From: Daphnia carinata
Taxonomy: Eukaryota
DNA length: 64,000 nt
Assembly (NCBI RefSeq): GCF_022539665.2
Contig: NC_081331.1
Location: 496,001 to 560,000, forward strand
Reading direction: 5' to 3'
A model generated the notes under the pieces. That model had not been told where the DNA came from. It did no database searches and saw only the letters and a list, made by a program, of their open reading frames with translations. Made by a program: the position numbers and the translations under genes. Positions 4,974 through 35,087 of the stretch are shown piece after piece. How positions within the stretch are numbered: the first letter of the stretch is position 1; every line of letters starts with the position of its first letter.

Positions 4974-7900
4974 ATGGCTAGTTGCCTCAAAGAAAATTTA
5001 ACTGGTTACTCATTTCTCGGATTACGAGAAGTAGTTCCTGATCAAACAGGCGTGGAACAATGGAAGGAACTTTCACTGAATACGGGTAATATAAGTAGAC
5101 TTGATGAGCCATACCGGCTACAGTTCTTTCTTCCTCAACCAAAACGGTGTCATTTTTATGTACTCACGTTTCTGTTTTTTTTTTTACAAGGCGGAACTCA
5201 CTTGACGCTTCAAGATATTAAGCTACCTGAAGGATGCATATCAGGAGGATATTGTTTTACCGATTCTTCTTCAGTTGTCACACGTAACCGTTTCATATGC
5301 TGGTAAAAACTTAATTATTTGTGAATTTTCTTTAATAACTTAAAGCTAGAGAAAAACCCTATGGCAGACTTTAATGTATTTTTAAATAGGCAAATTAATA
5401 ATGATGTCCTGGAATTAGTTGAGCACAGCTTAGATTTAAACCTTCATGGAAACTGTCTACGCATTAGATTTCAAGGATTAGCGATCCTAGAGGGAACATC
5501 CATACATGAAACTAGAAACAGTGTTGTCATCTTGGTCTCAACTATATCTTCAGTTCATCGTCTGGTTCTGCCACATCCATCAAAACATAATGATCCATCA
5601 GCATTCAGTTCAACTGGAACCAATATATCTGTCCCCTCTATTTTCACTGAAGCTTCGCTCCCATGGTTGAGAGAATCTTTCAGTCACCAGGTCATCAATA
5701 GCACCACTACAAATGTTTCCCTTCCCAGCACAGCAGCATCCTGTTTATCCACCAATGGAAAAGAAGCTTTGTTTGCTTTGGCAAACACTACGTCAATATC
5801 TCTTATTCGCATGGGTCAGACACCCTCTGCTGTGAGTACTTTTAATTTGCAGCCATCATCGAATTTTTCTCGTTTGCTCTCCGGCTACCTACCAACTGTA
5901 TTACGAGGCACTTCAACGCAAGAAAACGAAGAAACCACGACTAGCATTTGCTTATTGCCAACCAACGATGACGTTCTCGTATTGGCCATAAGCAAAGGCT
6001 TGAAGTTGCGTATTTGGTCAGCGACAACACAAGATTGCCGATTGGAATTTGACCTGATTGAGTACCTTGGTGAGAAGTCAGTTAAACAGCTTGGCTCTCT
6101 TCACCGCATTCGATGGTGCACGGAAGGCGAAAATTTCACACTGGGAGTCTTCTCTTCCTTTGGCAAAAAGCGATCCTTTCTACTTATCAATCTGCAAACG
6201 GGCCCTACACTCAAATTAAATTTCCAGTCCTCCATCGCGGCACAGCACAGTCGTTTGATTGATTTTAGCCTTACTTCTGATCATCTTTATGCGTTATGGA
6301 GTACTTCTCAAGGAGAACATCTGTTGGAATTTGCCGAAACGACTCGATTACAGTGGCAACAAATCGCCTTGGAGCCGGGGATTGAATCAGACATTGAGTA
6401 CGACGATACCGTTGTTGATCCGAAACAAGCCTACATGCAGGCACTTTTTAAGCCTGGCGCATTCTCTGTTTCTACATTGAGCAAAGCTCTACAAGCTTTT
6501 GATCGTTCCGGGGCAATCAAAAGAAGGAGAATGGGAGACATCAAAGAAGATATCATTATGGCCATCGAGACGGAGTTGACCGATCAATTAGCAGAGGCAG
6601 GTGATCTGACGGAAGAAGACTACCTGCAACTCGCAGCCAAATGTTGGGCTCAGTTCTATGCCTATGTTGTGCAATACCATTTGAAACGACCCGTTCCCAT
6701 CGGCTTGTTGATTGATGAAAACACAGGCTTCCACGCTCTTCTTAAAAAAGGGATGATTTCGTTTCTGCGCCCCTTAGATCTCGTAGAGAGTTTGGTTTTA
6801 CAGCGAGGCCTTCGTTGGGATGGGCATCCACATATAGACGTCATTTCTCCGCTCTTTGGAGGCCAACAATCAGCTTCTGGCCTTACTGCCCTACTTGAGG
6901 TAAAAATCACAGTTTTAGCTTACTTCGTGATGGTGTATAACAGTTGCATTATTGCAGGTCCTGCTTCTCGTCAGCGATAATTTGTTGACAGAACAAATAA
7001 AGCGATTTGACCATTCCATGTTCCAGTTACAAAGCGCTGATCAAATTGCTCGGGAAATAGCTAATGAACTCCTCGAGAACAAATCGCTCAACTTACTAAA
7101 CGCCATGCACATCGCATTGTCATCCATCGATGTTTGCATGGCTTTGTCTGTCCTCTTGCAACAGCTCAGTGTCGGCATGAATGGAGGCAATTCGAAATCA
7201 AGTGACATTTTCTTAAGCGGCAAAAGTTCTCTTCGGTTGCTATTCAATGGAGCACTTGGATTAGGCGCATTAGCCGAATCGTCCAGACAGATGGCTGACT
7301 TGAGGTGGGCATCTGTCCTTAATTGTCACATATGGCACACGAGACGCTTCTTCATTTGATATAATTCTTTTGCTTTTCGTGTAAAGGTTGGGCTTGTGTC
7401 GAGATGTACTGATCGTGCAGCAATTACTGATATTGACCCAGGAAGAACTCCAACTTAGTTCCGAGGATGCAGAAACGATCCGCTCTGAATTCCTTCCTCG
7501 CAGCGTCCCTCTCGCTCACGCTTACTACGCTTTGTCGTGGTTGTGTCACTGTCCTGCCCAAACAGTTTCGAATTCTCTCGTTGAACAAAATATTCGTGCA
7601 ATGACTCTGTTAGGATTTAAAAAATCGCAAGAGTCATATGGTAAGGAAAGAATCTGTGCCATTCCACACATCAGTATAAATAATATTACTTATTTTTTTA
7701 GCGACTTTACCATGCAAGAGTTTGGTCGAATTATTTCTTTCTTCCGATGGAGGCAGGGCTGTCCGAGAAATGGTTCTTCAGGAAGAAGATGCCTCAGAAT
7801 GGACATCGTCTTGGCTGGAAGTTTTCCCCCACTTCATGAAAGCTATCGGCCAGTTGCTATGGCCCATAGGAAATCATGTAACATTCATGGAATTTCTAAT

Positions 7901-9881
7901 GGAACGATTCCAGCCCTTGGCCGTACAGGGATATGTTCGCTTGCAACAGAGCTGGTTTGTAAAAATTCTATCCAATGGACATCACTTGAGATTTTTTAAG
8001 TATTTACTTGAAATTTCTTTAAGGTGTGAATGGAATACTTGCTCCCGTAAATTCCTCATGGCCGTCGCCCTGATGGCTACTGGTGAAGGAGACAAGGCCA
8101 GTCGATGGATGCTTGAGGCTGCTGAAGGAATAGTCAAGGAACAACTCCTGCGCTCCGTTGTTTTAAAAAGCGTGGATGAAAGTGGCGATTCCATGAGTCG
8201 CTCAGACCCAGTGATTCGCTTTCACCTCGTCTGCGTCCAGTTGCTAGAGCAAGCTGGGCTGAGCAGTGCCGCACTTCGTGTTGCACTGGTTGCGTTAAAC
8301 GGTAGCAAAAAGGAAGACCCGCTGTTAGCTACAATATGGTCTGTTGTCGCCAAACTTCATTTGAACTTGGGTCATTATCAGGTATAAGAGAACATCTTAC
8401 AACCAAATGACATTGTACCTAAACCATATTTCAACAGGAAGCATATGAAGCCATTGTTAATAATCCGGATAGCAGTCAACGGCCCGAAACACTTGGACGT
8501 TTGGTCAATATTTTGTTAGAGCGCAAACAGATGGACACTCTTCTAACCTTTCCTTACGCTGGATTGGAGTCAGAGTTGGAGAAAATAGTAGAAAGGCGGG
8601 CTCGATCATCGGACGTTCTGTCTATGACGCTTTACTATTCGTTCCTCTATGCCTTTCACGTCAGACAGGGTAAAATGCGCAAAGCTGCTGCTGTGATGCA
8701 TGAACAGGTGAAGTGCACTATCGAGAAACAGCTTTTGGTTATGAAAACTAATATCCTCTGATGACAGGCACTTCGATATGGATGTGAAGGTGAATCTGCA
8801 AAAATGGTCAAATGTCTTTTGGCATGCCTCAACGCCCTGCGTTTAGTCTCGAGGCAGGAAGCTTGGCTGGTGAAACCAGTGACAGCTTCGTCTGTTCGGA
8901 AGAATTCATCAGAATCACTCAAGCATACAGTAGACGTCATCGAATATGCTGATATCGAAAAGGAGTATGAACTTAGCTACGCCTGTATTAATCTTGGACA
9001 GCCGATCACATCGCTATCCGCCTCTGATGTAGTAGCTCTTTTGATTTCACGTAACCGCTATGAATCCGCGCTGCGCATTGCCAAGATTTTTGACGTAAAA
9101 GGTATAAAATCTCACTGACTCCTTTCATGAGGCTTGATGTGTTTTTCTCAACAATCTAATCTTAACTAGATACTTCGCCCGTCGTGGAACACCTTGCTGC
9201 CAATTGCATGGCGTTATCGAGAGAACAGGCCAACGAAGATGATGCTTGGGTTTGGTTATCTCTGAATCAGTCCTCTGGAGTTGGTAAGGCTTCGGAACAG
9301 GCCTGGCGATTACTGGAAAAGATTATACCGAAAGCTGAAGGAGGTGATAAAGAAACACGTTGCCATCGAGCGGCTGCCCGAAAAATTCTTGGCTTGGATT
9401 GCACTCTGCCTTATTGGTTGGCCGCCAGCTACAAGTTGAGGAATCCCGGTGAACTTATCAGCCTCTATCATCAGGCAGGACTTCTGGAAGATGCAGCCCA
9501 GGTATTTTAGTTTCTGATTCTGTCAGTTTTAATTAAAAAAAATTACTTGACAAAATCTATCAGGTGGCTCTCGAACTGGTGGATGCTATGCTAGGCAAAG
9601 GTAAGGAATACTTTGGGTTCACCAGCAATCCGCTTCAGATCAACGCTCCTGCTATCTGGCTGCCCTACACCGTTATAGATCGTTTAATCATGGAATTGGA
9701 AGCCAATTCAAACGATTCTACCTACAAGATGGTAAATATTCTCTTTGTAACTTGTTTTTATAACCGCTTCAGTTCTTATTTGTATGTTTAGTTGCTGAAA
9801 GACATGAAGGATAAATTGGAGACTTACTTCCATACCGCTGAACGTGTCAGTCGCTCTATTCTCGAATTATCCGTGTCTTAG
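4974..9881 (+). CDS. NUP160: Nuclear pore complex protein Nup160 (intact copy)
   Basis: Motifs RNRFICWR, LELVEHSLDLNL, SVHRLVLPHP, KLRIWS, CEWNTCSRKFL, ARSSDVL..YYSFLYAFH, LPYWLAASYK and WLPYTVIDRL. GT-AG introns keep frame; ATG 4974, TAG 9879-9881. Confidence 0.92.
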
Positions 9882-10159
9882 CCTGCCTATTTTACGAAAA
9901 TGTGAACTCCGTATTTTCATTTTACTGCATAATGAAATATCGAGAATACCTTTGAATCCAATAAATTCATGTGTATGTGACTGGAATTGTAAACGCAATT
10001 ACACCAGTATATGCAGTTTAAAATCACAGAAAAGCCCTCACTGTGTTCAAGAAATTGACGGAAAAAACAGGTAATTATTAAATTTGCTGATATTAGTGTA
10101 AATTTTTTTTTGTTTAATAGATTTTTGTATGAGGAATCCAATATGAGGAATCCAACTTC

Positions 10160-10380
10160 TTAAATTTGGAACCTAAATCATGGATAGTATCTATATTTAG
10201 TGGTATTATTTTTTTAAAAGGAAAAGTCGGGCTTAAAATTTCCATCAGCCGTATACATTGATGTAGCGCTCCAGTACAACAGTGCTAGTGCAACACATCA
10301 AAGTTCCTCGATTTGTCTTAATTGATCAATAAATAGGGATAACTAGGCATGATTTAGATTCAAAATTTTACGAGAATCAA
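10160..10380. repeat. Fragment of the dispersed AT-rich repeat family also at 23.9-26.0 kb and 35.1-35.8 kb
   Basis: Reverse-complement similarity to ~24620-24840 (AAAAGTCGGGCTTAAAATTTCCATC; ATGATTTAGATTCAAAATT). Confidence 0.8.
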
Positions 10381-10404
10381 GACAATGGTTAAAGAATATG
10401 AAAA

Positions 10405-10495
10405 ATTTCAATAATGACGAGGAGGATTACCTTCTGTAGTCTCCTTGTGACGGCCATAGCTGTTCCGTTTACGTTTTTTGAACTTGCCTAAACGG
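10405..10495 (-). pseudogene. UBE2L3: Inverted orphan copy of UBE2L3 5' leader, exon 1 (MAVTRRLQK, 10457-10431) and start of intron 1
   Basis: Minus strand AAACGGAACAGCTATGGCCGTCACAAGGAGACTACAGAAG|GTAATCCTCCTCGTCATTATT closely matches 28809-28869. Confidence 0.9.
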
Positions 10496-10503
10496 AATTG
10501 CCT

Positions 10504-13374
10504 ACGGAAACCAAGTAGGGTGGGGTTCAATAAAAACAAATGAAACGCGAAACCCGCACAATTTACGGAATTTGACTGAATCAGAGTCATAGAGACCTGG
10601 TTGCTCCACGCTGTGCTATAAATTGCCATAAGAGTCTGCGGTGACTTGTGGTTGAAATTTCACTGATTTTGGGGGAGCAGCTGGCAGCGATAGAGAGCCA
10701 TCTATTGAATGGTCCGTGATCGAAGTTAATAACGGAGCTAGGTGATAAAGCAAGAAATTTTTTTAGTTGTTTACCAAAACATTTGAGTTTCTTTTTCTCG
10801 GCACGGAAAGATACAACTCGCTTCTGTATTCAAAATTTCACTTCACTACACCGACAAATTGAGCTAAAAGCTCGACAACCCATACGTATTTTGCTAACTA
10901 AAGATTCATCTCGAATGAGAAAAAAAAATGTCCATGCAAAATTCTGAATTAGTTGCCAACAAACAACGGGGCCAAAATATACAAAGAGTAATCGCATATG
11001 ACGGCAAACGACTCAAAAAATACATTGAAATTTTTGACAGAAATTACATTAAGGGACAAAAACCGAGAGCCGATAAATTAATTTTTGCTGAATTCATCTT
11101 GTTATTTGTTACAAACCGGAAAAAAGGAACGAGTGCAAGGGGGGGGACGAATAGGAAACGTCTTGGAATTTTTTTTTCTTTTCGTTTAAGAATAAAAGAT
11201 TGGATGAGGAGGGGGTACGAAAGGTGTGTTTATTCTCCTTCCCGACTCGAAAGTTAATATTTTCAGTCAATGTATTGAGCTAGCCAGCGGAAATCTTCGC
11301 CGTAGCCTTGGCCTTCCACAACAGAACACATGAATAATTCAATGGGCCGAGAAGATAAATCTTGGCGAAAGAAGATTGAAGATCTTGGATTTCTGCCCTA
11401 TAAACGGAAATTAAAATTTATCTTACGAGTACTTAAATAAGTTAAATTGAAAGGGATATTTTACTTTTCTGGTAGTGTTGTGCAGCTCAAAATAAGAACG
11501 CAATTGATCTTCCGAATCTGCTCCAAACCTATCGATCTTGTTGCCGAGTATAAGGATAGGACAATGTCTCAATTGTTCATCGGCTAAAAGCGAGCATAAC
11601 TCGTTTTCTTTCCAGCTGTAAAGTTTTTTCGCATAACAGATTCAGAGGAACTAGTGATTGGCAACATAAGGTTCACCACATTTGATTTGGGTGGCCATAT
11701 TCAAGGTGTGTAGCAAAATTTACGATATTCTTTTGAATATCTTAATATTAAATGATTTTTCAAATAGCAATTGCAATTGTGTTTCTAGTCGATGCCTTTG
11801 ACACCCAACGCTTATCGGAAAGTAAAAACGCGTTATGCTCGCTTTTAGCCGATATTAAGATATTCAAAAAAATGCTCGCTAAAAGCGAGCATAACTCGTT
11901 TTTGTCGATGCGGAACTAGTCGGCGGAACAAGTCGATGCCTTTGACACCCAACGCTTATCGGAAAGTAAAAACGAGTTATGCTCGCTTTTAGCGAGCATT
12001 TTTTTGAATATCTTAATATCGGCTAAAAGCGAGCATAACTCGTTTTTACTTTCCGATAAGCGTTGGGTGTCAAAGGCATCGACTAGAAACACAATTGCAA
12101 TTGCTATTTGAAAAATCATTTAATATTAAGATATTCAAAAGAATATCGTAAATTTTGCTACACACCTTGAATATGGCCACCCAAATCAAATGTGGTGAAC
12201 CTTATGTTGCCAATCACTAGTTCCTCTGAATCTGTTATGCGAAAAAACTTTACAGCTGGAAAGTAAAAACGAGTTATGCTCGCTTTTAGCCGATGAACAA
12301 TTGAGACATTGTCCTATCCTTATACTCGACAACAAGATCGATAGGTTTGGAGCAGATTCGGAAGATCAATTGCGTTCTTATTTTGAGCTGCACAACACTA
12401 CCAGAAAAGTAAAATATCCCTTTCAATTTAACTTATTTAAGTACTCGTAAGATAAATTTTAATTTCCGTTTATAGGGCAGAAAGCCAAGATCTTCAATCT
12501 TCTTTCGCCAAGAGTTATCTTCTCGGCCCATTGAATTATTCATGTGTTCTGTTGTGGAAGGCCAAGGCTACGGCGAAGATTTCCGCTGGCTAGCTCAATA
12601 CATTGACTGAAAATATTAACTTTCGAGTCGGGAAGGAGAATAAACACACCTTTCGTACCCCCTCCTCATCCAATCTTTTATTCTTAAACGAAAAGAAAAA
12701 AAAATTCCAAGACGTTTCCTATTCGTCCCCCCCCCCCCCTTGCACTCGTTCCTTTTTTCCGGTTTGTAACAAATAACAAGATGAATTCAGCAAAAATTAA
12801 TTTATCGGCTCTCGGTTTTTGTCCCTTAATGTAATTTCTGTCAAAAATTTCAATGTATTTTTTGAGTCGTTTGCCGTCATATGCGATTACTCTTTGTATA
12901 TTTTGGCCCCGTTGTTTGTTGGCAACTAATTCAGAATTTTGCATGGACATTTTTTTTTCTCATTCGAGATGAATCTTTAGTTAGCAAAATACGTATGGGT
13001 TGTCGAGCTTTTAGCTCAATTTGTCGGTGTAGTGAAGTGAAATTTTGAATACAGAAGCGAGTTGTATCTTTCCGTGCCGAGAAAAAGAAACTCAAATGTT
13101 TTGGTAAACAACTAAAAAAATTTCTTGCTTTATCACCTAGCTCCGTTATTAACTTCGATCACGGACCATTCAATAGATGGCTCTCTATCGCTGCCAGCTG
13201 CTCCCCCAAAATCAGTGAAATTTCAACCACAAGTCACCGCAGACTCTTATGGCAATTTATAGCACAGCGTGGAGCAACCAGGTCTCTATGACTCTGATTC
13301 AGTCAAATTCCGTAAATTGTGCGGGTTTCGCGTTTCATTTGTTTTTATTGAACCCCACCCTACTTGGTTTCCGT
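10504..13374. repeat. Long near-perfect inverted repeat: arms 10504-11903 and 11968-13374, 64 nt spacer
   Basis: The arms are reverse complements with about half a dozen differences. The same spurious ORF appears at 10928(+) and 12950(-). Confidence 0.97.
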
Positions 13375-14106
13375 GGCCGAGGCCAACCGTTTGGCTCTTA
13401 CATTGAGCCGAACAGTGTCTGAAAAGCTTCCCAGACTTTTCCCACAGGCCTAAAGAACAAAACAATAGTTAAATCCAATATATTGTAACGAAATTTAAAA
13501 TATTAGATTTGTTAAACAAGAAATATAAATAAAACTGGAAATAAAAAGTCATTTGAAAGTTGCCCTAAACCCTTGTAATAGAGTTAAAAACGGACATCCG
13601 GAAATGTAAATAGATCCCGGGAATGATACAAGGTTGTCGTCGATCTTGCATCAGTGGATCGTGGGTTTCGCGTTGGTGGAGGGGAGTATATAAAAATGGT
13701 AGAATATAGAGTTGGGGGGGGGGGTAAGAGAGATACAGAGAGAGAGATTCTGGTTTTAATTTGTCTGTATAACGCTAGTTAGTTTTTGGTGACGGTCGGT
13801 GTTTGTGCGGATGGTTTCGTTTTGATAGTTTAAGTGGTACCGTGCAGTTGTTCCTTTGTTTTGGTTAGTGTAGAGGCCCGGCGGCCTGACATGTTAGACT
13901 TCAGTTCTGTGATAAACTAATATCAGACCGAAGAATAACTATCAAGACTAACAGGTGGCCAAAAGCACGTCAATCCATTTACAAAACAGAAAATATCCCC
14001 GACGTATTGTGGGTCTCTGTCCAAGACCGCGTTACAATATATTTACTTTATAATAGTTCTTACCAACCATACCCATAAGTCCTGTTAACCAGTCCAACAC
14101 AAACAT
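11263..14106 (-). pseudogene. SAR1: Rearranged, divergent Sar1 GTPase pseudogene
   Basis: Exon 1 (14106-14064) reads MFVLDWLTGLMGMVG. Exon 2 from 13449 reads LWEKSGKL with the P-loop deleted. SEELVIGNIRFTTFDLGGH, AIVFLVDAFD..ESKNEL.SLLAD, ILGNKID and [22 protein letters not shown] occur in both palindrome arms (stops at 11263-11265 on - and 12608-12610 on +). Confidence 0.92.
13484..14036 (+). mobile_element. Solo LTR (Ty3/gypsy-like) in Sar1 intron 1
   Basis: Termini TGTAACG...CGTTACA, flanking ATAT target-site duplication and internal TATATAAAA near 13687. Removing the element and one TSD leaves a 57 nt intron. Strand is inferred from the TATA only. Confidence 0.85.
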
Positions 14107-15085
14107 TTTGAGTGTCGAAATAAATTGACAGAGCAGGAATGTTAAATCACTCATGAACGCTAACTTTTACTGGACCTAGTGCTATGAAATCGGGAAAAGC
14201 AGAAACAGTTGAAGAAACCAGCCTGATATGTACGTCATACACAAGCAAACGTGAAAGGTCAACAATTGAGGAGCCAGAAAAAATGATAGGACTAAAAAGG
14301 GTTGGCGTTCATCAGCTTTCCTTAATTCGCCAGTTGCTGTACAAACAGAACTTCCGACAATCAAAATGGAGCACTTCACACACACACCTCTGTATTCGAA
14401 TAAATTAGGGGTCACAAGATTGACTATGAATATCAATTGCAATCCAGTCTGACTTAAGCTCGGTGGTACTCCCCCAACGTATCTCTCAAGACCTGTATGT
14501 TAACGTATGCCTTAAAGCCGACGTCAGCATCACGACAGAGCCGTTAAATAACTATGCGTTATTGGGAATTCTAAAATTTTCGTCCTATTTAGATTGAGAT
14601 AATGTGAAAAAAAATTGGCTTTTTATTCGAAATAAACGAATTAATATTGAGAGTATTTTTAAATAAGTTTTAATTCGGAGATTTGACAACTGTTTTCATA
14701 GAAACGAAGAAGGGTCCGATAAATTGAGCGACCTATCTTGCCCTCAGTTTCCACAGCGCCCTTTGCCCCTTTGTTGCCCTCAGTTTCCACATGGAGTTAA
14801 TTTAAGTCAGACGGGTTTGGTGGAATGGTCTTTTTAGTTGGAGACCATGGGCACAACGGGGTTTTGTTTGAACAAGTGATTTTAACAGTTTCCCCAGCAA
14901 ATACTGCCCATTCGATTACAGCATTAAATGCTTTTGAAAATCCAGTGCCAAGTTATGTTTGGGTTTGATGTTCAATCTAATGCATTTCCCCAAAAAATCA
15001 ACTATGTTGGCAGGTTAGTAAAAAAAAAAAAAAAATTAAAATAACGTATTCACTGCTGAATGTGGTCTTATGGGATACATCTAGC

Positions 15086-18000
15086 CTTGAATGCTTCAAG
15101 ATATTAAGCTACCTGAAGGATGCATATCAGGAAGATATTGTTTTACCGATTCCCCTTCAGTAGTTACACGAAACCGTTTCACATGCTGGTAAAAACTTAT
15201 TTATTTCTGAATTTGTTTTAGAACTTAAAGCTAGAGAAAAAGTTTAGGGCACAATTTAATATATTTTTTAAATAGGCAAATTAATAATGATGTCCTGGAA
15301 TTAGTTGAGCATAGCTTAGGTTTAAACCTTCATGGAAACTGTCTACTCATTAGATTTCAAGGATTAGCGATCCTGGAGGAAACATCCATACATGAAACTA
15401 GAAACAGTGTTGTCATCTTGGTCTCTACTATATCTTCAGTTCATCTTCTCGTTCTACCACATCCATCAAAACATAATGATCCATCAGCATTCAGTTCAAT
15501 GGGAACCAATATATCTGTCCCCTCTATTTTCACTGAAGCCTCGCTCCCATGGTTGAGTGAATCCTTCAGCCACCAGGTCATCAATAGCACCACTGCAAAT
15601 GTTTCCCTTCCCAGCACAGCAGCATCCTGTTTATCTGCCAATGGAAAAGAAGCTCTGTTTGCTTTGGCAAACACTACGTCAATATCTCTTATTCGCATGG
15701 GTCAGACACCCTCTGCTGTGAGTACGTTTAATTTGCAGCCATCTTCGAATTTTCCTCGTTTGCTCTCCAGTTATCTACCAACTGTATTACGACGCACGTC
15801 AAAGCAAGAAAACGAAGAAACCACGACTACTATTTGCTTGCTGCCAACAAACGATGACATTCTCGTATTGGCCGTAAGCAAAGGCTTGAAGTTGCGTATT
15901 TGATCAGCGACAACACAAGATTGCCGATTGGAATTTGACCTGATTGAGTTTCTTGGTGAGAAATCAGTTAAACAACTTGGCTCTCTTCACTGCATTCGGT
16001 GGTGCACGGAAGGTGAAAATTTCACACTGGGAGTCTTCTCTTCCTTTGGCAAAAAGAGGTCTTTCTACTTATCAATCTGCAAACGGGCCCTACACTCAAA
16101 TTAAATTTCCAGTCCTCCATCGCGGCACAGCACAGTCGTTTGATTGATTTTAGCCAAGGAGCCAAGGAGTCAAGGAGAACATCTATGGGAATTTGCTGAA
16201 ACGACTCGGTTACAGTGGCAACAAATCGCCTTGGAGCCGGGGTTTGAATCAGACATTGAGCACGATGATACCGTTGTTGATCCGAAACAAGCCTACATGC
16301 AGGCACTTTTTAAACCCGGCGCATTCTCTGTTTCTACATTGAGCAAAGCTCTACAAGCTTTTGATCATTCCGGGGCAACCAAAAGAAGGAGAATGGGAGA
16401 CATCAAAGAAGATATCATTATGGCACTCGAGAGGGAGTTATCCGATCAATCAGCAGATGCAGGTGATCTGACGGAAGAAGACTACCTGCTACTCGCAGCC
16501 AAATGTTGGGCTCAGTTCTATGCCTATGTTGTACAATACCATTTGAAGCGACCCGTTCCCATCGGCTTGTTAATTGATGAAAATGCTGGCTTTCATGCTC
16601 TTCTTAAAAAAGGGTTGATTTCCTTTCGGCGTCCCTTAGATCTCGTTGAGAGTTTGGTTTTACAACGAGGAATTCGTTGGAATGAGCACCCACATGTAGA
16701 CGTCATTTCTCCGCTCTTTGGAGGCCAGCAATAAGCTTCCGGCCTTACTGCCCTACTTGAGGTAAAAATCACAACTTTAACTTTCTTCGCGATGGTGTAT
16801 AAACAGTTGCATTATTGCAGGTCCTGCTTCTCGTCAGCGATAATTTGTTGACAGAACAAATAACGTGATTTGACCATTCCATGTTCCAGTTATAAAGCGC
16901 GGATCAAATTGCTCGCGAAATTGCTAATGAACTCCTTGAGAACAAATCGCTCGACTTGCTGAACACCATGCACATCGCATTGCCTTCCGTCAATGTTTAC
17001 ATGGCTTTGTCTAGCCTGCTGCAACAGCTCAGTGTCGGCATGAATGGAGGCAATTCGAAATCAAGTGACATTTTCTTAAGCGGCAAAAATTCTCTGCGGT
17101 TGCTATTCAATGGAGCACTTGGATTAGGCGCACTAGCCGAATCGTCCCGACAGATGGCTGACTTGAGGTGGGCATATGTCATATGGTACACGAGAAATCA
17201 CGTTCTATATTTGATTTGATTTTTGTGGTTTCATGTAAAGATTGGGCTTGTGTCGAGATGGATATTGGATATCACTTGAGATTTGTTTGATATTTATTTA
17301 AAATTTCTTTAAGGTGTGAATGGAATACGTGCTCCCGTAAATTCCTCATGGCCGTCGCCCTGATGGCTCCTGGTGAAGGAGACAAGGCCAGTCGATGGAT
17401 GCTTGAGGCTGCTGAAGGAATAGTCAAGGAACAACTCCTGAGCTCCGTTGTTTTAAAAAGCGTGGATGAAAGTGGCGATTCCATGAGTCGCTCAGACCCA
17501 GTGATTCGCTTTCACCTCGTCTGCGTCCAGTTGCTAGAGCAAGCTGGGCTGAGCAGTGCCGCACTTCGTGTTGCACTGGTTGCGTTAAACGGTAGCAGAA
17601 AGGAAGACCCGCTGTTAGCTACAATATGGTCTGTTGTCGCCAAACTTCATTTGAACTTGGGTCATTATCAGGTATAAGAGAACATCTTACAACCAAATGA
17701 CATTGTACCTAAACCATATTTCAACAGGAAGCATATGAAGCCATTGTTAATAATCCGGATAGCAGTCAACGGCCCGAAACACTGGGACGTTTGGTCAATA
17801 TTTTGTTAGAGCGCAAACAGATGGACACTCTTCTAACCTTTCCTTACGCTGGATTGGAGTCAGAGTTGGAGAAAATAGTAGAAAGGCGGGCTCAATCATC
17901 GGACGTTCTGTCTATGACGCTTTACTATTCGTTCCTCTATGCCTTTAACGTCAGACAGGGTAAAATGCGCAAAGCTGCTGCTGTGATGCATGAACAGGTG

Positions 18001-19171
18001 AAGTGCACTATCGAGAAACAGCTTTTGGTTATGAAAACTAATATCCTCTGATGACAGGCACTTCGATATGGATGTGAAGGTGAATCTGCAAAAATGGTCA
18101 AATGTCTTTTGGCATGCCTCAACGCCCTGCGTTTAGTCTCGAGGCAGGAAGCTTGGCTGGTGAAACCAGTGACAGCTTCGTCTGTTCGGAAGAATTCATC
18201 AGGATCACTCAAGCATACAGTAGACGTCATCGAATATGCTGATATCGAAAAGGAGTATGAACTTAGCTACGCCTGTATTAATCTTGGACAGCCGATCACA
18301 TCGCTATCCGCCTCTGATGTAGTAGCTCTTTTGATTTCACGTAACCGCTATGAATCCGCGCTGCGCATTGCCAAGATTTTTGACGTAAAAGGTATAAAAT
18401 CTCACTGACTCCTTTCATGAGGCTTGATGTGTTTTTCTCAACAATCTAATCTTAACTAGATACTTCGCCCGTCGTGGAACACCTTGCTGCCAATTGCATG
18501 GCGTTATCGAGAGAACAGGCCAACGAAGATGATGCTTGGGTTTGGTTATCTCTGAATCAGTCCTCTGGAGTTGGTAAGGCTTCGGAACAGGCCTGGCGGT
18601 TACTGGAAAAGATTATACCGAAAGCTGAAGGAGGTGATAAAGAAACACGTTGCCATCGAGCGGCTGCCCGAAAAATTCTTGGCTTGGATTGCACTCTGCC
18701 TTATTGGTTGGCCGCCAGCTACAAGTTGAGGAATCCCGGTGAACTTATCAGCCTCTATCATCAGGCAAGACTTCTGGAAGATGCAGCCCAGGTATTTTAG
18801 TTTCTGATTCTGTCAGTTTTAATTTAAAAATATTACTTGACAAAATCTATCAGGTGGCTCTCGAACTGGTGGATGCTATGCTAGGCAAAGGTAAGGAATA
18901 CTTTGGGTTCACCAGCAATCCGCTTCAGATCAACGCTCCTGCTATCTGGCTGCCCTACACCGTTATAGATCGTTTAATCATGGAATTGGAAGCCAATTCA
19001 AACGATTCTACCTACAAGATGGTAAATATTCTCTTTGTAACTTGTTTTTATAACCGCTTCAGTTCTTATTTGTATGTTTAGTTGCTGAAAGACATGAAGG
19101 ATAAATTGGAGACTTACTTCCATACCGCTGAACGTGTCAGTCGCTCTATTCTCGAATTATCCGTGTCTTAG
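15086..19171 (+). pseudogene. NUP160: Partial tandem duplicate of NUP160 (duplicated block 15086-19426 corresponds to 5201-10136)
   Basis: Exon 1 is missing. Stops at 15901, 16732, 16866 and 16893, a frameshift near 16058, and deletions at ~16155 and ~17260 (~570 nt). The 3' part is nearly identical to copy 1. Confidence 0.93.
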
Positions 19172-19711
19172 CCTGCCTATTTTACGAAAATGTGAACTCC
19201 GTATTTTCATTTTACTGTATAATGAAATATCGAGAATACCTTTGAATCCAATAAATTCATGTGTATGTGACTGGAATTGTAAACGCAATTACACCAGTAT
19301 ATGCAGTTTAAAATCACAGAAAAGCGCTCACTGTGTTCAAGAAATTGACGGAAAAAACAGGTAATTATTAAATTTGTTGATATTAGTGTAAATTTTTTTT
19401 TGTTTAATAGATTTTTGTATGAGGAAAACTAACTGTAATCTAACCGTTAGAATTCTAGAGAAAGTTGGAGGTAGGGTATAGTTAATGACCCGGAAGACCT
19501 TGGTTCTTTGTCCTTTTTTTGGAGAGGGGTCAAGCTTAAGGTCGAAATACGATTTGAGAGCAAGGTACCGTTTAAAGGTGTAGAAATCGATGAAACAAAA
19601 TAGGTCAAGAAGCCTCCATTTCTGGTCAAAAGGAGAAACTCTTATGCCTATGAGATTCTACAAATAAAATAGTTCTCAAAGTTTTTATGGTTTCCTGACA
19701 ATCTATCGAGG

Positions 19712-19935: not shown

Positions 19936-20139
19936 ATGATGAAAATTATTCTTGCACTGGCTGTCCTTGTAGCTGTTTTCAGCATGGAGATCTTAGCCGC
20001 TAGTTTACAGAATCAACAAATTCATGAAGAAACACCAGCAGAAGAGAGGACATTTGGCCTGCTGGCGTTATTTGCAATTTGGCCTGCTATTAAAGGCTTT
20101 TTCAAAAGCATCTTTGCTCCCGCTGCTGTTACCTACTAG
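19936..20139 (+). CDS. 67-aa secreted prepro-peptide (signal, acidic pro-piece ending EER, hydrophobic/amphipathic mature peptide)
   Basis: MMKIILALAVLVAVFSMEILA-ASLQNQQIHEETPAEER-TFGLLALFAIWPAIKGFFKSIFAPAAVTY*. The ATG follows a splice acceptor and a TATA box lies upstream. Confidence 0.75.
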   Translation: MMKIILALAVLVAVFSMEILAASLQNQQIHEETPAEERTFGLLALFAIWPAIKGFFKSIFAPAAVTY

Positions 20140-20629: not shown

Positions 20630-23594
<2,965 letters not shown>

Positions 23595-23904
23595 AATATG
23601 AAACCTAGAACGAAACTGAAATACCCATTCTAGAAAAGAAGGAAATGAATAAAACAAAAATGAATAGATTGTATAATGAGAAAAAAATGTATGCGTTATC
23701 GACGAGCAGGTCTGAAGACTTCTCATTGTTTCGGTTAAAAATAATTTTTTTGTCCGTTTAAAATTGCCGCTACTCAGCTTGTATCCGTCCAGATGTTTGG
23801 GGCTTTACCATAAATAAATTTGCTGTTCTTCCGATTTGACAAAGATAATTGAAGTTGTTTTACTCTAATTAAAAAAACTTTATACGTAACGGAAAAACTG
23901 CCCT

Positions 23905-26035
23905 GCCAGCGATCAATTTAGAATCGAAATAATGTATTCTTAACTAAATCTAAAATTCGACGAAAATTGAAAACGTGAGAAGGCTATAGCCTTTTCATTT
24001 TGAAGAAAATCATCAAAAATGGACATCTCTCAGAATTCAATAAAAAAAACATACATTATGCTCAAAATCAAACGCTGATTCTAACTGGCGTATTAGTTTA
24101 GCCGTTCCTATGAAGTTTTTTAATTATGCGCAATCAAAGTAGTTATAGCGCAACTACTTAAATAGTTTAGATAATTCGAAAACTATAAACTCTATGTAAA
24201 AACAAAATTCATTTTCATGATTCTTGTTAAATTTTCGTGATCCTCGTCTATTTTCGTGATCCTCGTTAAATTTTGAATCTAAATCATATTAGTTATCTAT
24301 ATTTATTGATATTATTTTTTAAAGGGAAAAATTTTTAAGCCCGACAAAATAAGCCCTACTTTCCCATATTTTATATTTTAGATTTCTCAAAATCCGTAAA
24401 TGCCATTCCGGAAAAAGTTCATTTTCGTGATTCTGGATAAATTTTGAATCTAAATCATGTATAGTTATCTAGATTTATTGATATTATTTTTTTTTTTTAT
24501 TTGGGCTTATTTTGTCGGGCTTAAAATTTCTTTCGCACCTACTTTTATATTGTAGATAATTTAAAAACCATAAACTCCACGCCAAAACGAAGTTCATTGT
24601 CGTGACTCTGGTTAAGTTTTGAATCTAAATCATGCATACTTTTCTTTATTTATTGATTATTTAAGAAAAATGGATTAACTTCGATGTGTCGCGCTAGCGC
24701 TGTAGCGTACTGGCGCGCCACAACAATATATGTGGCCGATGGAAATTTTAAGCCCGACAAAAAAATAGGCCCGACTTTTCCTTTTAAAAAATAATACCAT
24801 TAAATATAGATTACTATATATGATTTAGATTCTAAATTTAACGAGGATCACGAAAATAACATAGAAATAATATACGTAGACCTTATGGATTTTGAGTAAT
24901 CGATGAACCTTGATGTGTCACGCTAGCGCTGTAGCGTACCGGAGCGCTAGTATGAATAGAAAAAGTCGGGCTTAAAAATTTTTCCTTTAAAAAAATAATA
25001 TCAAGAAATCTAGATAACTATACATGATTTAGATTCCAAATTTAACGAGGATCACGAAAATAGACGTTGTTTTTACGTAGAATTTGTGGATTTTGATTAA
25101 TCAAAGAACTTTGATGTGTCACGCTAGCGCTGTAGCGTACTGGCACGCTAGTACGCTCGACTTAGTCTGGCTTAAATTTACCCCGACTTTCCTTTCCCGA
25201 CCTCATTTTCTTCGTTTTCCTTCATTTTATTAAACCCAATGGCAAAATAAACCCGATTTTTGTGATCAGCGATCAATTTCGCATCGGAATAATGTATTTT
25301 CTTACTAAATTTAGAATTTGACGAAAATCGAAAAAGTGGGAAGGCTATAGCCTTCTCATTTTTACGAAAATCGTCGAAAAGCAACATCTCTTGGAATTGG
25401 GCGAAAATCACAGGTTATAATCAAAATTGAACGCTGATCTCGAATCAGTAATTTATTTTGTCCTTAAACCAGCCGTTTTTTAAATAAAGGAAAAGGTGCT
25501 GCTAGCGCACCACCTTAATTTTTTGTTTTTTACGGTTAATTCAAAACCCGTAAGCCCAACGTCAAAATAAACCCGATTTTCGTGATCAACGATCAATTTC
25601 GAATCGGAATAATGTTTTTAAAACTAAATTTAGAATTTGATGAAAATTGAAAAAGTGGAAAGGCCTTCTCATTTTGACAAAATCATCAAAAATGGACATC
25701 TTTCAGAATTTAATAAAAAAACAGAAATTATGCTCAAAATCAAACGCTGGTTCTAGCTGGTATGGTAGTTTTTCCGTTACATCTGAAGTTTTTAAATTAT
25801 GTGCAATCAAAGTAGGTATAACGCAACTACCTAAATATTTTAGATAATTCGAAAACTATACAAAATTCATTTTCATGATTCTAGTTAAATTTTGAATTTA
25901 AATCATGTATAGCTATCTAGATTTATTGATATTATTTTTTAAAAGGAAACTTTTTTAAGCCCTATTATAAAAGTAGTTGCGCTATTACTACTTTAATTGC
26001 GCTAGCTAGCGCTGTCGCGTATTGGCGTGCTAGTG
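23905..26035. repeat. Complex nested direct/inverted repeat array (non-autonomous DNA transposon or foldback-like)
   Basis: Recurring GCTAGCGCTGTAGCGTAC, AAGCCCGAC/GTCGGGCTT and TTTTGAATCTAAATCAT modules in both orientations. 23909-24200 resembles 25590-25860. No transposase ORF. Confidence 0.8.
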
Positions 26036-26634: not shown

Positions 26635-28230
26635 TTAAAAAATCGAGCCATGTTTATGAGCCACGAAATTTTCCGTTTGTTGTCGGGAAGGAGGTAGGTA
26701 TTGGTAATTGACTGATTGACTTTGATAGCGTTGCCCAGATGCAGGTCGCTCTTTTTGAGGAATTTCGATAGGCCGATTCCGTTCCTGGATCGGGTGAGGT
26801 GTTAGTCCCGTTATTGCTGGCTGGACCGACCTAGGAGAGGATCGAATTCCGCTGTCCTTTACCATTAGATAGGGATCAACCTTCTCATTAACTGGTTGAT
26901 ATAGGACCTGAGTTTCAAAAAATGTCTGTTCATTGGTATTAATATCGACGGCCACAGAAGACGAGACGTCATCTACCAGTTGAAAAGTAGGTACAAAAAT
27001 TTTAACGTTTTTAGATGTTTGTAGGAGTGGCCAGTTTCGTTGCGGGTTTTCTCTAGGTGGTGGAAATCCCGTAACTGCAGTGAAGTGTGGCCTAGGCGAG
27101 GGTCGAATACCGTTGCCATTTACCATTCGATATGGGTTAACCTTCTCTTCAACTGGTTGCAGGATCTGAGGTTGCTCAATTGTATTTTCACCGTTTTCAC
27201 CAGTATTACGTTCGACGGCCACAGAGGGCGGAACTTCATCTACCGGTTGAAAAGTTGGAGCAAAGCTCTTAACATTTTCATCTCCTTGGTTGATTGGGCA
27301 GTTTTGTTCCAGGTGAGGTGGTGAAAATGCCGGATTTGCCGGGTGGACTGGCTTAGGGGAGGATCCAATACCGCAGTCTTCTTTCAATCGATGCTCATTT
27401 AGAGTTTGCTTTTCAGCAAAACTAGAGTTAATTTCTAATGTTCTAACATTAACCGTGTTCTCCCGAGTTAACGCGACGTCGTCGAGCATCTCTTCCAGTT
27501 GTTTAATAATTGCGTTCGAAGCCTGTAGAGCCTGGCGGAGCTCCTGCATATCCATCTTCGTTTCATTTAGCTGTTGAAACATACCATTGTTATTCATTTC
27601 TGAATAAGCAAGTCGTTGTTCCAATGCTTGAAGTCGATATGCAAAATCTTGGGATGGAGTTTCTTGTGGCGTAAATGAATTGGGTTTTCCATGTTGAAGA
27701 ACCGTGCCATTATGGCTGTCAGCTCGTGAAAAGGGATTTTGTGGCGTAACGGTTTGACTGGGTTGTATGTTAGCCCCTGGAATTTGCTGGGTGTTAACTG
27801 CACGCAGATTGTCTTCATACGCCTCTGCCTGGGGATGAAGCCGAGAACGGCGTCTGCTGCGAGAAGTTGGCATTACTTCTTTCTCATAGGTTAAAAGATG
27901 TGAATTCCTGCCAATCTCGTTTGCTGGGTTGGGTTGTATGTTAGCCCCTGGAATTTGCTGGATGTTAACTGCATGCAGATTGAGTTCATGCGTCTCTACG
28001 TGGGGATGAAGCCGAGAATGGCGTCTGCTGCGATGTGTTGGCATTACTTCATTCTCATAGGTTAAAACATATGAGTTCATGCCGATCTGGTTTGCTGGGT
28101 TTTCAAGTTTCTCATCAGTCAACTGAGCACGAGCTGAGTCTTCAGGCGGGAAACTTTTTTTGGTCTGGGGTTCTGTACGTGCTTTTGGCCACGAGGGCAA
28201 CAAGGAGAAAATCGATGTTAGAAACAACAT
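26635..28230 (-). CDS. 531-aa intronless orphan protein with internal repeats and a central coiled coil
   Basis: Uninterrupted 1.6 kb ORF from an ATG in AT-rich DNA, with a 57-aa tandem repeat, ~85-aa repeats and a heptad segment (LQALEQRL...IKQLEEML). Confidence 0.7.
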   Translation of the reverse strand: MLFLTSIFSLLPSWPKARTEPQTKKSFPPEDSARAQLTDEKLENPANQIGMNSYVLTYENEVMPTHRSRRHSRLHPHVETHELNLHAVNIQQIPGANIQPNPANEIGRNSHLLTYEKEVMPTSRSRRRSRLHPQAEAYEDNLRAVNTQQIPGANIQPSQTVTPQNPFSRADSHNGTVLQHGKPNSFTPQETPSQDFAYRLQALEQRLAYSEMNNNGMFQQLNETKMDMQELRQALQASNAIIKQLEEMLDDVALTRENTVNVRTLEINSSFAEKQTLNEHRLKEDCGIGSSPKPVHPANPAFSPPHLEQNCPINQGDENVKSFAPTFQPVDEVPPSVAVERNTGENGENTIEQPQILQPVEEKVNPYRMVNGNGIRPSPRPHFTAVTGFPPPRENPQRNWPLLQTSKNVKIFVPTFQLVDDVSSSVAVDINTNEQTFFETQVLYQPVNEKVDPYLMVKDSGIRSSPRSVQPAITGLTPHPIQERNRPIEIPQKERPASGQRYQSQSVNYQYLPPSRQQTENFVAHKHGSIF

Positions 28231-28821
28231 TTTTGAGAGTACTTCTTTTTCTTGTAGAGAACACTAAGAAAATTCAATATTTTCACCGAATATCGCTGAT
28301 GCCCTTTTACCGTTTCTCTGGTGGTGACTGGAGTAGCAGGTTCAAATAAGCAAAGTTGTTTTCATTTTACAAATTTATTTTGAATGCTGCAACGCACACT
28401 TTTGCTGCATTGGAAACTTTAATATTTTTCGCATGGCGTTCAATGGTATCCTTGAAGATAAATTAATTTCAAATTAAGCGAACGTAGATTTTTGTTAGCG
28501 TCGAGAAACAGTTTGTAATGCCAGTCTCTACTGAGTGATGACATTATCGGAATTTCTTTTAGGATTTTACCCATGTTTGATAGCTTCATTTAAGATTACA
28601 AATAATATCCGTTTAGACAATTCAAAATAAAAACTGTGGAATTTAATATTTCAACAAGTTACCTCATAAAGAGGATAACCGAGTGCATAAGTATGAGCAT
28701 AAATTGGACAATGTGGAGGTAACGAGTTGAGGTAAATTTGTAATAAAACGACTTCAGACATTGTGTTACGAGCATTTGGCAACGCTGCTTTTGGATTCTA
28801 AAAAACCTAAACGGAACAGTC

Positions 28822-29539
28822 ATGGCCGCCACAAGGAGACTACATAAGGTAATCCTCCTCGTCATTATTAAAATTTTCCGACTTCTTAAATGTTTTTAAT
28901 TTTTGTTGAAAGGAGTTGGAAGACATTAAGAAGTCTGGTTTGAAATCGTTTCGTGACATTCAAGTTGATGAACAGAACATTCTCACCTGGCATGGACTTA
29001 TCGTTCCTGTGAGTCTGATGGCTGAATATTTGACACAAAAGTATTGATTCATCACCTAGGTTACTAACCATTGACATTTTTCTGTTAGGAAAATGCTCCA
29101 TATAACAAAGGTGCATTTCGGATTGAAATTAATTTTCCTGCTGAATATCCATTCAAACCTCCTAAAATAGCATTTAAAACCAAAATCTACCATCCCAATA
29201 TCGATGAGAAAGGACAGGTAAAACTGAAAGAAATACTTAATATTATAGTCCTTGCTGATTAAGAAAAATGTTCTATTCCATTGTTTTGTTGCTAATCATT
29301 TGACTTTTTTAAATCTTCGCCATTAGGTTTGTTTGCCCATCATTAGTGCTGAAAACTGGAAACCTGCCACTAAAACAGATCAAGTGATACAAGCACTAGT
29401 TGCCTTGGTCAATGATCCAGAGCCTGAACACCCACTCAGGGCTGATCTTGCTGAAGAGTATTCCAAAGACAGAAAAAAATTCATGAAAAATGCTGAAGAG
29501 TTTACTAAAAAGAACAGTGAAAAGAGGCCAAGTGATTAA
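28822..29539 (+). CDS. UBE2L3: Ubiquitin-conjugating enzyme E2 L3 (UbcH7)
   Basis: Four exons: [14 protein letters not shown]..|..[47 protein letters not shown]... Confidence 0.96.
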
Positions 29540-34371: not shown

Positions 34372-35087
34372 AAAGCTCATCTCGTGCTGTTGTGCATGAT
34401 CAAGAAATATCCGTAAGTCTGTTTTAAGTGTATTCTTATTATTATGATTGTCCGCATGTTTCTGCACCGAATTTTAATTCCCTCTTTTTCATCCACCGAT
34501 TAACACATAAAGTTGGTTACGGTCCAGTCATATACAGTAGGCGACATCCTAACCCAGTTGTTTTTATCTGTGTGGAATACTTCTTTGGGCTGTACAACCA
34601 ATTATGAGAACATGCATCCTTTTGGAAATACAGTACTTGTCATATTACACTTTTCTATGTTTATCTATTTTTCAAGATTACACAAAAAATCTGCCTCTTT
34701 TTTGCTTTACTGCTATTGCCATCTACCGGTAAGATTTCCAGTAAATTCTCTGAAGACAACTTTACATATCAAGCTATAGAAAAATAAAATCTTTTAAATT
34801 ATTAACTTTACTTAACTAACATATACTGTAAATAAACCTTATTTTCTTTGTTCTATTCTATTTTTTCTATTCTATTTACCTAACTTAATTATTATTGCTA
34901 TTAACTATTGCATAAGTCCATTTCATACTGCAGCAATGGGAATGAAAATAAAAATTCTTATAATAATAAGAATAATTGCGTGCTTAAGATATAAATAATG
35001 CATTTGAATAAAAACTCGTTACTGGTGGTTGCGTTGTATTATATTATATTATGTTATTCTGATAGGTGTCAGTTTATGCATAAAAAA

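What the first reader, a model, noticed from the sequence alone, without database searches (positions are those of the whole stretch)
10504..14106. Sar1 pseudogene converted into a 1.4 kb-stem palindrome: candidate hairpin-RNA/endo-siRNA locus
Seen: Sar1 exons 1-2 lie on the minus strand directly upstream of two ~1.4 kb inverted arms that contain the remaining exons and 3' UTR, with nested smaller inversions at the centre. The P-loop and part of switch II are deleted, so no GTPase can be made. Inference: transcription from the Sar1 promoter would give long dsRNA able to silence related Sar1 transcripts, like the Drosophila hpRNA suppressors derived from their targets. Near-identical arms imply a recent origin or arm-to-arm conversion.
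Basis: partly seen in the sequence, partly recalled or inferred. Interest (0 to 1): 0.85.

Follow-up and report, generated by a model that had tools for sequence, protein, structure and literature searches.

The report
Young palindrome in dead Sar1 copy
In the water flea Daphnia carinata, a long-dead copy of the essential secretion gene Sar1 has been folded into a near-perfect 1.4-kb inverted repeat, likely by a recent DNA-repair accident; it would make silencing double-stranded RNA if its retained start region still works, but no RNA from it could be tested.

Summary
The palindrome is in the sequence: arms 10504-11903 and 11968-13374, 1396 of 1407 columns identical, 64-nt spacer. The organism is Daphnia carinata (the neighbouring Nup160 matches all 1379 residues of its protein). 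The arms hold pieces of Sar1 exons 3-5, two introns and the conserved 3' UTR. The non-coding first exon, start region, exon 1 and an exon-2 stub lie upstream. The copy was dead before it folded. Both arms share about 6% replacement-site divergence and a deletion in exon 4, and the part outside them has lost the P-loop and a splice acceptor and carries a solo-LTR-like insert. The arms differ from each other by only about 0.4%. The centre is a patchwork of short templated pieces, as fold-back repair leaves. Each arm has its own derived changes, which argues against an artefact, but no reads could be laid on it. Transcription, siRNAs and Dicer dependence are untested. No closer 'selfish' Sar1-like target was found; the one annotated target is the essential Sar1 on another contig. 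Verdict: a probably real, young repair-born palindrome and a fair hairpin-RNA candidate, not a shown silencer.

The parts
10504..11903 (.). Left arm (1400 nt). Read on the minus strand: inverted exon-4a/intron-3/exon-3 block, then sense exon 4b (11613-11465), intron 4 (11464-11398), exon 5 CDS (11397-11263, with an 18-nt insertion), conserved 3' UTR to about 10800, and downstream DNA
11904..11967 (.). 64-nt spacer: 37 nt of an extra exon-4 copy plus 27 nt that include short pieces matching exon 3 and exon 4 (8-9 nt) and a 7-nt local repeat
11968..13374 (.). Right arm (1407 nt). Read on the minus strand: antisense of downstream DNA, 3' UTR, exon 5, intron 4 and exon 4b (13374-12258); then sense intron-2 end, exon 3 (12231-12166), intron 3, truncated exon 4a (12103-12018), an inverted 18-22 nt intron-3 piece and an inverted exon-4 piece
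13375..13420 (-). 46-nt junction segment of unresolved origin (not significantly like outgroup exon 2 or like the left flank)
13421..13449 (-). Sar1 exon-2 stub (residues 15-24); the P-loop and the rest of exon 2 are absent
13484..14036 (.). 553-bp solo-LTR-like insert in intron 1: TG...CA ends, 7-bp terminal inverted repeat, ATATAT on both sides (likely target-site duplication); orientation not established
   Evidence: the LTR label rests on recalled LTR end features, and no database match was found (0 hits in viral contigs)
14064..14106 (-). Sar1 exon 1 CDS (14 codons, 5 differ from the D. carinata protein); the upstream splice acceptor AG seen in outgroups is lost
14107..14387 (-). Sar1 5' UTR intron (intron 0) and the short 5' UTR part of exon 1, homologous to D. 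magna and three other Daphnia-type loci
14388..14505 (-). Non-coding exon 0 and start region of Sar1 (23 of 25 translated positions identical to the D. magna 5' UTR); the candidate promoter for a hairpin transcript
10137..10503 (.). Left flank: dispersed MITE-like repeats (10160-10387, 10389-10479) between the Nup160 3' flank and the left arm

Best explanation
This is a long-dead DNA-level duplicate of Sar1 in Daphnia carinata that was likely turned into a 1.4-kb palindrome by a recent fold-back, template-switching repair event, and it likely persists as a nearly neutral scar that makes little or no silencing RNA. Shown: the arms, their make-up, the shared decay and the small arm-to-arm differences. 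Inferred steps: (1) Sar1 was duplicated with its introns and start region to a site beside Nup160 and decayed (about 6% of replacement sites in the arms, 11-13% outside). (2) Synthesis left exon 2, copied the 3' part of the gene backwards, switched through an 8-nt microhomology to the exon-3 region, made several short templated hops, then snapped back and copied itself, mirroring all the earlier junctions. A two-step version, with an inverted duplication first and the spacer symmetrised later, fits equally. (3) Each arm then gathered a few point changes. (4) Any read-through RNA would be a Dicer-2 substrate with many 21-mers matching the intact Sar1 mRNA. Because Sar1 is likely essential and this start region comes from a housekeeping gene, output is likely low, cut short or tissue-limited.
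For: Decay shared by both arms far exceeds the arm-to-arm difference: 16 of 121 arm residues differ from D. carinata Sar1 (17 minimal changes on about 283 replacement sites), against 5 non-homopolymer differences in 1400 nt between arms. Derived states sit on both arms: left at 11831 and the 2-nt deletion at 11608; right at 12329 and 12484, probably also 12514. The centre is tiled by copies of 63, 37, 18, 9 and 8 nt of local sequence in both orientations. Short microhomology-primed fold-back inversions at breaks are documented in yeast (PMC11724301, abstract). An in-frame YFPAV stretch from the deleted part of exon 4 sits exactly at the inversion junction. The neighbourhood is rearrangement-prone: a broken Nup160 duplicate (5' half about 7% diverged, 3' half about 99% identical) and a frameshifted Sec23-like copy. 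No intact Sar1-like protein closer than 87% was found. Sar1 dsRNA killed all planthopper nymphs by day 9 (PMC5328259, passages). Possible early poly(A) signals lie in the path of a minus-strand transcript (ATTAAA 13760; AATAAA 13349 and 12682).
Against: The start region and exon 0 are well kept (23 of 25 translated positions against D. magna), so transcription may well persist. The hexamer at 13349 lacks a T-rich downstream stretch (T fraction 0.2), so it is a weak stop. Arm residues are less diverged from intact Sar1 than the residues outside the arms (16 of 121 against 7 of 23; Fisher p=0.058 against D. carinata, 0.21 against D. magna), the direction expected if matching were kept, though not significant. 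All 5 non-homopolymer arm differences lie in the inner 545 of 1400 nt, which one copying event does not explain. Long palindromes are usually unstable (recalled), so persistence could hint at selection. There are no RNA data either way.
Confidence: 0.55

Rival explanations
1. A working hairpin-RNA locus: the retained Sar1 start region, or the LTR-like insert, drives an RNA through both arms. Dicer-2 cuts it into siRNAs that dampen the intact Sar1, or an unannotated Sar1-derived sequence, in trans, perhaps only in germline or one sex, and selection keeps it.
For: The start region and exon 0 are retained and point into the palindrome. Predicted helices of 159, 29, 218, 223 and 72 bp in the 1501 nt folded. 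Even a more distant Daphnia-type Sar1 locus shares a 22-nt exact stretch (L001). D. pulex has two Dicer-2-type genes and an Ago2-type gene (PMC2685406). Drosophila hpRNAs are described as always young and derived from their targets (bioRxiv 10.1101/2021.08.05.454923, passages). Mouse Au76 works at about 90% identity to Rangap1 (PMC6223193, passage).
Against: No RNA evidence was obtained. No closer or selfish-looking target among proteins of 45-146 or 101-2000 residues, and no other 18-nt match to the arms in the window. The only named D. carinata Sar1 among the 21 cluster members read is the ordinary gene. Silencing Sar1 was lethal in another arthropod. R2D2 was not found in D. pulex (PMC5521735, passages). 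The copy had decayed long before the arms last matched.
Confidence: 0.2
2. An older palindrome kept near-identical by arm-to-arm gene conversion, with no RNA role; the low arm divergence then reflects conversion, not age.
For: The outer 855 nt have no substitutions, while all 5 non-homopolymer differences lie in the inner 545 nt. The chance is about 2% for the 4 substitutions alone if uniform (boundary chosen after seeing the data). The adjacent Nup160 copies show an abrupt switch from about 7% to under 1% difference, as conversion or recent recopying would give.
Against: There is no significant decayed homology beyond the arm ends (58-245 of 2000 shuffles and 118-324 of 1898 window segments scored as high). 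The short templated pieces at the centre are still exact copies of their sources, which suggests youth.
Confidence: 0.13
3. An assembly or library artefact, such as a fold-back read or an amplification chimera built into the consensus.
For: No independent reads or contigs could be examined (one search listed none; one search was uninformative). Fold-back chimeras do occur in records of this very gene: two D. magna predicted proteins read antisense then sense through the Sar1 5' end (P0045, P0047). Differences cluster toward the hairpin centre, where sequencing is hardest. The sequencing method is unknown.
Against: Both flanks continue into unique, gene-consistent DNA. The arms carry substitutions and a 2-nt indel, with derived states on both sides. 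About nine non-parental joints are present, and those inside the arms are mirrored exactly. The window has no N, and the neighbouring 1379-residue Nup160 is read without a break. Near-perfect Drosophila hairpin loci are lost in short-read assemblies but present in continuous long reads.
Confidence: 0.12

Closest known systems
Drosophila hairpin RNAs (hpRNA class; Nmy, Tmy, mini-Tmy suppressors of Dox-family drivers)
   Same: A young, near-perfect inverted repeat made from a gene copy, in an arthropod lineage with Dicer-2/Ago2-type genes.
   Different: Those loci have shown siRNAs and matched selfish targets. Here neither RNA nor a selfish target is known. The source is an intron-bearing DNA duplicate of an essential housekeeping gene that had already decayed, and the arms are internally scrambled.
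Mouse oocyte pseudogene-derived endo-siRNA loci (Au76, pseudogene of Rangap1)
   Same: A pseudogene about 90% identical to a housekeeping parent, able in principle to act on it in trans (PMC6223193 passage; identity here estimated at about 90-94%). That Au76 itself holds an inverted repeat is recalled, not seen in that passage.
   Different: For Au76, the siRNAs, their Dicer dependence and the rise of the parent mRNA on Dicer loss are reported; none of these is tested here.
Fold-back inverted duplications with templated insertions from microhomology-mediated repair (alternative end joining / template switching)
   Same: Short local copies in both orientations, microhomology at joints and a short asymmetric spacer (PMC11724301 abstract).
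   Different: The yeast events are mostly 5-34 bp and induced at a break. This one is kilobase-scale, sits in an assembled genome, and has since gathered point changes.
Plant inverted-duplication silencers (e.g. Arabidopsis PAI1-PAI4, maize Mu killer, Antirrhinum SULF); recalled, not from a call
   Same: An inverted duplication of part of a gene, placed downstream of a promoter.
   Different: Those have genetic proof of silencing and plant-specific amplification and methylation pathways.

Membership tests
hpRNA / hairpin endo-siRNA locus | Genomic inverted repeat able to form a long RNA duplex | tested here: met
   Arms 99.2% identical; 1456 of 1501 nt paired in the predicted fold
hpRNA / hairpin endo-siRNA locus | One transcript that runs through both arms | not testable with these tools
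   No runs were listed. The start region is retained, but poly(A)-like hexamers and an LTR-like insert lie in the path
hpRNA / hairpin endo-siRNA locus | 21-22 nt small RNAs from the stem | not testable with these tools
   No small-RNA data could be reached
hpRNA / hairpin endo-siRNA locus | Dependence on Dicer-2 / Loquacious / Ago2 | not testable with these tools
   Dicer-2-type and Ago2-type genes are reported for D. pulex; R2D2 was not found there; not checked in D. carinata
hpRNA / hairpin endo-siRNA locus | A trans target with siRNA-length complementarity | tested here: inconclusive
Protein-level divergence and simulation predict many perfect 21-mers; 1 of 3 other Daphnia-type Sar1 loci shares 22 nt exactly, the others 17 and 19 nt
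Suppressor hpRNA of a selfish gene (Nmy/Tmy type) | A recently expanded or selfish target that matches the hairpin better than the ancestral gene | tested here: inconclusive
   None among predicted proteins: best identities 87% in 8 and 10 hits. The genome could not be searched, so unannotated copies are not excluded
Unprocessed (DNA-level) pseudogene of Sar1 | Parent's introns and 5' region retained, coding capacity lost | tested here: met
   Introns at the same positions as in L001-L003, exon 0 retained, P-loop absent, exon order broken
Microhomology-mediated fold-back duplication | Joints made of short locally templated pieces with microhomology | tested here: met
   The outer joint at 13374/13375 shows no exact microhomology, and its 46-nt neighbour is unassigned
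Solo LTR (insert in intron 1) | TG...CA ends, short terminal inverted repeat, target-site duplication, and kinship to a full element | tested here: inconclusive
   Ends and flanking duplication are seen; no related element was found

The most novel reading that the evidence does not exclude
A newborn hairpin-RNA gene in a crustacean: a repair-made palindrome in a dead Sar1 copy that is transcribed, from the old Sar1 start or from the LTR-like insert, and sends siRNAs against the single essential Sar1 gene. It would tune secretion in germline or males, or act as a self-limiting or selfish silencer. It would be a hairpin-RNA birth caught at about 0.4% arm divergence, outside flies.
Probability: 0.15. 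Interest if true: 0.75.

Novelty: new member of a known kind. Interest (0 to 1): 0.42.

Why it matters
If silent, it is a clear example of how repair turns a dead gene copy into a ready-made hairpin substrate, the proposed first step in the birth of hpRNA genes. If it is transcribed, it is a natural RNAi construct against an essential gene, in an animal whose genus carries the RNAi machinery. That makes two questions directly testable: whether crustaceans have an hpRNA pathway, and how a genome tolerates or shuts down a new hairpin against a housekeeping gene. In the held library, 'hpRNA'+'crustacean'+'endogenous siRNA' gave 0 papers and 'Daphnia'+'Sar1' gave 2 whose titles concern other organisms. 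The listings showed no title on a Daphnia hairpin-siRNA locus. The library lacks most subscription papers, so this does not prove it is unreported.

Tried and rejected
Whole-genome search: no genome is held for this window, so paralogues and other long inverted repeats could not be counted. Sequencing runs: none was listed for 10100-14500, which is no evidence either way; no reads were laid. Exact look-up of 7 open frames from the locus (4 spanning junctions, 2 inside the arms, 1 upstream) plus 3 Nup160 controls: 0 of 10 in the collection, controls included, so uninformative. Rfam: 0 matches in the window. The metagenome scan gave 4 loci: 3 intact Daphnia-type Sar1 genes from other species and 1 weak match, none of this locus. 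LTR end pattern in viral contigs: 0. The 46-nt segment as decayed exon 2: not significant (56, 508 and 172 of 1000 shuffles). The same segment as a decayed extension of the arms: not significant. Better conservation inside than outside the arms: not significant (p=0.058-0.21). One search had two exon segments out of frame; those counts were discarded and redone, while its simulation and exact-match results are unaffected. Orthology to the second D. pulex-group Sar1 (P0039 type) is disfavoured: 21 of 121 arm residues differ, against 16 of 121 for D. carinata Sar1. Earlier scan findings: nothing for this place or sequence; one search gave only other genomes. PMC5887150 and PMC2592633 (passages) added little. 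No supplements were opened.
Full report
Observation. The finding's core is in the sequence. The repeat search gives three consecutive inverted blocks. Global alignment shows one palindrome with arms 10504-11903 and 11968-13374, 1396 of 1407 columns identical, and a 64-nt spacer. The differences are 4 substitutions (11359/12514, 11389/12484, 11544/12329, 11831/12040), a 2-nt indel (11608/12264-12265) and a G-run of 7 versus 12. The longest exact inverted match is 643 nt; 100 shuffles of the region reach at most 18. Nested inversions of 63, 37, 29, 26 and 22 nt sit at the centre. Rfam finds nothing in the window.

Organism and parent. The arm peptide matches Sar1 (Pfam Arf; solved SAR1 chains). 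Its best relatives are Daphnia-type Sar1 proteins at 78-87% (77-87%). The Nup160 gene just left of the locus contains all 1379 residues of the D. carinata protein XP_057371294 (470 of 470 in the long exon, against 94-95% for D. magna and D. sinensis). The animal is therefore D. carinata. Among the 21 members of the full-length Sar1 cluster, 15 were listed, including all 11 named ones. One is from D. carinata (XP_057378222, on an 8.39-Mb contig), whereas that Nup160 lies on a 14.38-Mb contig. The known target would thus be a single gene in trans. The parent's DNA could not be fetched: no genome is held, and the metagenome scan returned only other species' Sar1 loci, L001-L003.

Anatomy. On the minus strand the block begins with the Sar1 start region and non-coding exon 0. 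These align with L001-L003 up to about 14505, and with the D. magna 5' UTR at 23 of 25 translated positions. The acceptor before exon 1 has lost its AG. Exon 1 (CDS 14106-14064) is followed by a 614-nt intron, ten times the roughly 60 nt of outgroups, because of a 553-bp insert with TG...CA ends, a 7-bp terminal inverted repeat and ATATAT on both sides. I read this as a solo LTR from recalled features; no related element was found. Exon 2 stops after 29 nt, before the P-loop, and the next 46 nt are unassigned. The right arm then runs backwards through downstream DNA, the 3' UTR (conserved in L002 and L003 for about 460 nt), exon 5, intron 4 and the second part of exon 4. At 12258 it switches to forward intron-2 end, exon 3, intron 3 and a shortened exon 4a. 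A 15-nt stretch that reads YFPAV in frame, from the deleted part of exon 4, overlaps that joint by 8 nt. Next come an inverted intron-3 piece, an inverted 63-nt exon-4 piece and the spacer. The left arm mirrors all of this. So neither arm is a plain gene copy.

Order of events. Both arms share the decay: 16 of 121 residues differ from D. carinata Sar1, all but one by a single base (17 minimal changes on about 283 replacement sites, about 6%), and there is an 18-nt insertion in exon 5. Outside the arms 7 of 23 residues differ. The arms differ from each other at only 5 non-homopolymer places in 1400 nt. The copy therefore died well before the arms were last made equal. Derived states lie on both arms (left 11831 and the 2-nt deletion; right 12329, 12484 and probably 12514). 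A patchwork of short local copies in both orientations is what microhomology-primed fold-back and template switching leave (PMC11724301, abstract only). One serial event, or an inverted duplication followed by symmetrisation of its spacer, would both fit; this step is inferred. Two features are unexplained: all five differences fall in the inner 545 nt, and the left arm ends within 24 nt of unrelated dispersed repeats.

Real or artefact. I could not lay reads on the locus (one search listed no runs). The exact look-up of open frames failed for the controls too (0 of 10). The indirect case favours a real structure: unique, gene-consistent flanks on both sides; derived changes on both arms; precisely mirrored internal joints; no N in the window; and an unbroken 1379-residue neighbour. 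That last match may be circular if the protein was annotated from the same assembly. Against this, the sequencing method is unknown, and fold-back chimeras exist in D. magna records of this gene (P0045, P0047). I put artefact at about 12%.

Could it silence? The minus strand 12700-11200 is predicted to fold into helices of 159, 29, 218, 223 and 72 bp, with 1456 of 1501 nt paired. If divergence from the parent is 6-10%, a simulation gives 11-27% of 21-mers perfect and 37-64% with at most one mismatch. This is an estimate. L001 shares a real 22-nt exact stretch, and L002 and L003 share 17 and 19 nt. D. pulex has two Dicer-2-type genes and an Ago2-type gene (PMC2685406, passages), though no R2D2 was found (PMC5521735, passages). 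The substrate and probably the machinery exist. The difficulty is the target. Drosophila suppressor hpRNAs are paired with selfish Dox-family genes (10.1101/2021.08.05.454923, passages). Here no protein closer than ordinary Sar1 turned up (8 and 10 hits), and nothing else in the window shares 18 nt with the arms. Sar1 dsRNA killed all planthopper nymphs by day 9 (PMC5328259, passages), so a housekeeping promoter driving this hairpin at full strength should be costly. Possible brakes are the insert in intron 1, poly(A)-like hexamers at 13760, 13349 and 12682 (the one at 13349 has a poor downstream context), and unknown loss of upstream elements. None was tested. The lower divergence inside than outside the arms runs in the direction of kept matching but is not significant (p=0.058 to 0.21).

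Context. The locus sits in a strip of broken duplicates. A second Nup160 (15093-19426) lacks its 5' end and has stops and frameshifts. It differs by about 7% in its 5' half (pN/pS 0.29 over 503 codons) and by under 1% in its 3' half, with a deletion of about 570 bp at the switch. A Sec23-like copy follows, with a frameshift near 21790. Sec23 is the GTPase-activating partner of Sar1 (recalled). Whether their closeness means anything is unknown.

Comparison and verdict. It works like the first step of hpRNA birth, and resembles mouse Au76, a pseudogene about 90% identical to Rangap1 whose siRNAs are Dicer-dependent (PMC6223193, passage). In flies, long hairpins need functional tests to be assigned to a pathway (PMC12553114, passages). 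Membership in the hpRNA class is not established: only the structural criterion is met, and transcript, siRNAs and Dicer-2 dependence could not be tested. Best reading: a young repair-born palindrome in a dead Sar1 duplicate, with little or no silencing output (0.55). Rivals are a working hpRNA (0.2), an old palindrome kept by conversion (0.13) and an artefact (0.12). It is a new member of a known kind, worth a cheap look in long reads and small-RNA data; interest 0.42.

Noticed in passing
window 15093-19426 (+) versus 5207-10136 (+): Tandem Nup160 duplicate, 5'-truncated, with stops (15901, 16732) and frameshifts. The 5' half is about 7% diverged with pN/pS 0.29; the 3' half is about 99% identical; a deletion of about 570 bp lies at the switch. 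This suggests an older paralogue partly overwritten by recent conversion or recopying.
   Followed up: partly
window 20739-23595 (+): Sec23-like gene with divergent stretches and an apparent 1-nt frameshift near 21790. Disrupted copies of Sar1, Nup160 and Sec23 thus lie within about 13 kb.
   Followed up: partly
window 13484-14036: 553-bp solo-LTR-like insert in intron 1 of the Sar1 copy, with a TATA-like run near 13687 that reads either way. It could oppose the Sar1 promoter or supply a new one.
   Followed up: partly
window 26638-28227 (-): Open frame of 530 codons with a 171-bp two-copy repeat; no Pfam family and only weak atlas hits (0.77).
   Followed up: partly
window 10160-10479, 23900-25960, 28800-28890, 35060-35800: Family of AT-rich dispersed repeats with inverted ends (MITE-like), densely nested at 24-26 kb.
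   Followed up: no
proteins P0045 and P0047 (D. magna type by their Sar1 part): Predicted proteins whose N-terminal part reads antisense and then sense through the Sar1 5' UTR: probably fold-back chimeras in a transcript assembly.
   Followed up: partly
window 19939-20139 (+): Short open frame (66 codons) with a hydrophobic start like a signal peptide and no Pfam match.
   Followed up: no
L001, L002 and named proteins P0038/P0039, P0044/P0046: D. pulex-group and D. galeata records show two intact Sar1 proteins each. Against the window's copy, L001 aligns best in the 5' region and L002 in the 3' UTR, while L003 aligns in both.
   Followed up: no
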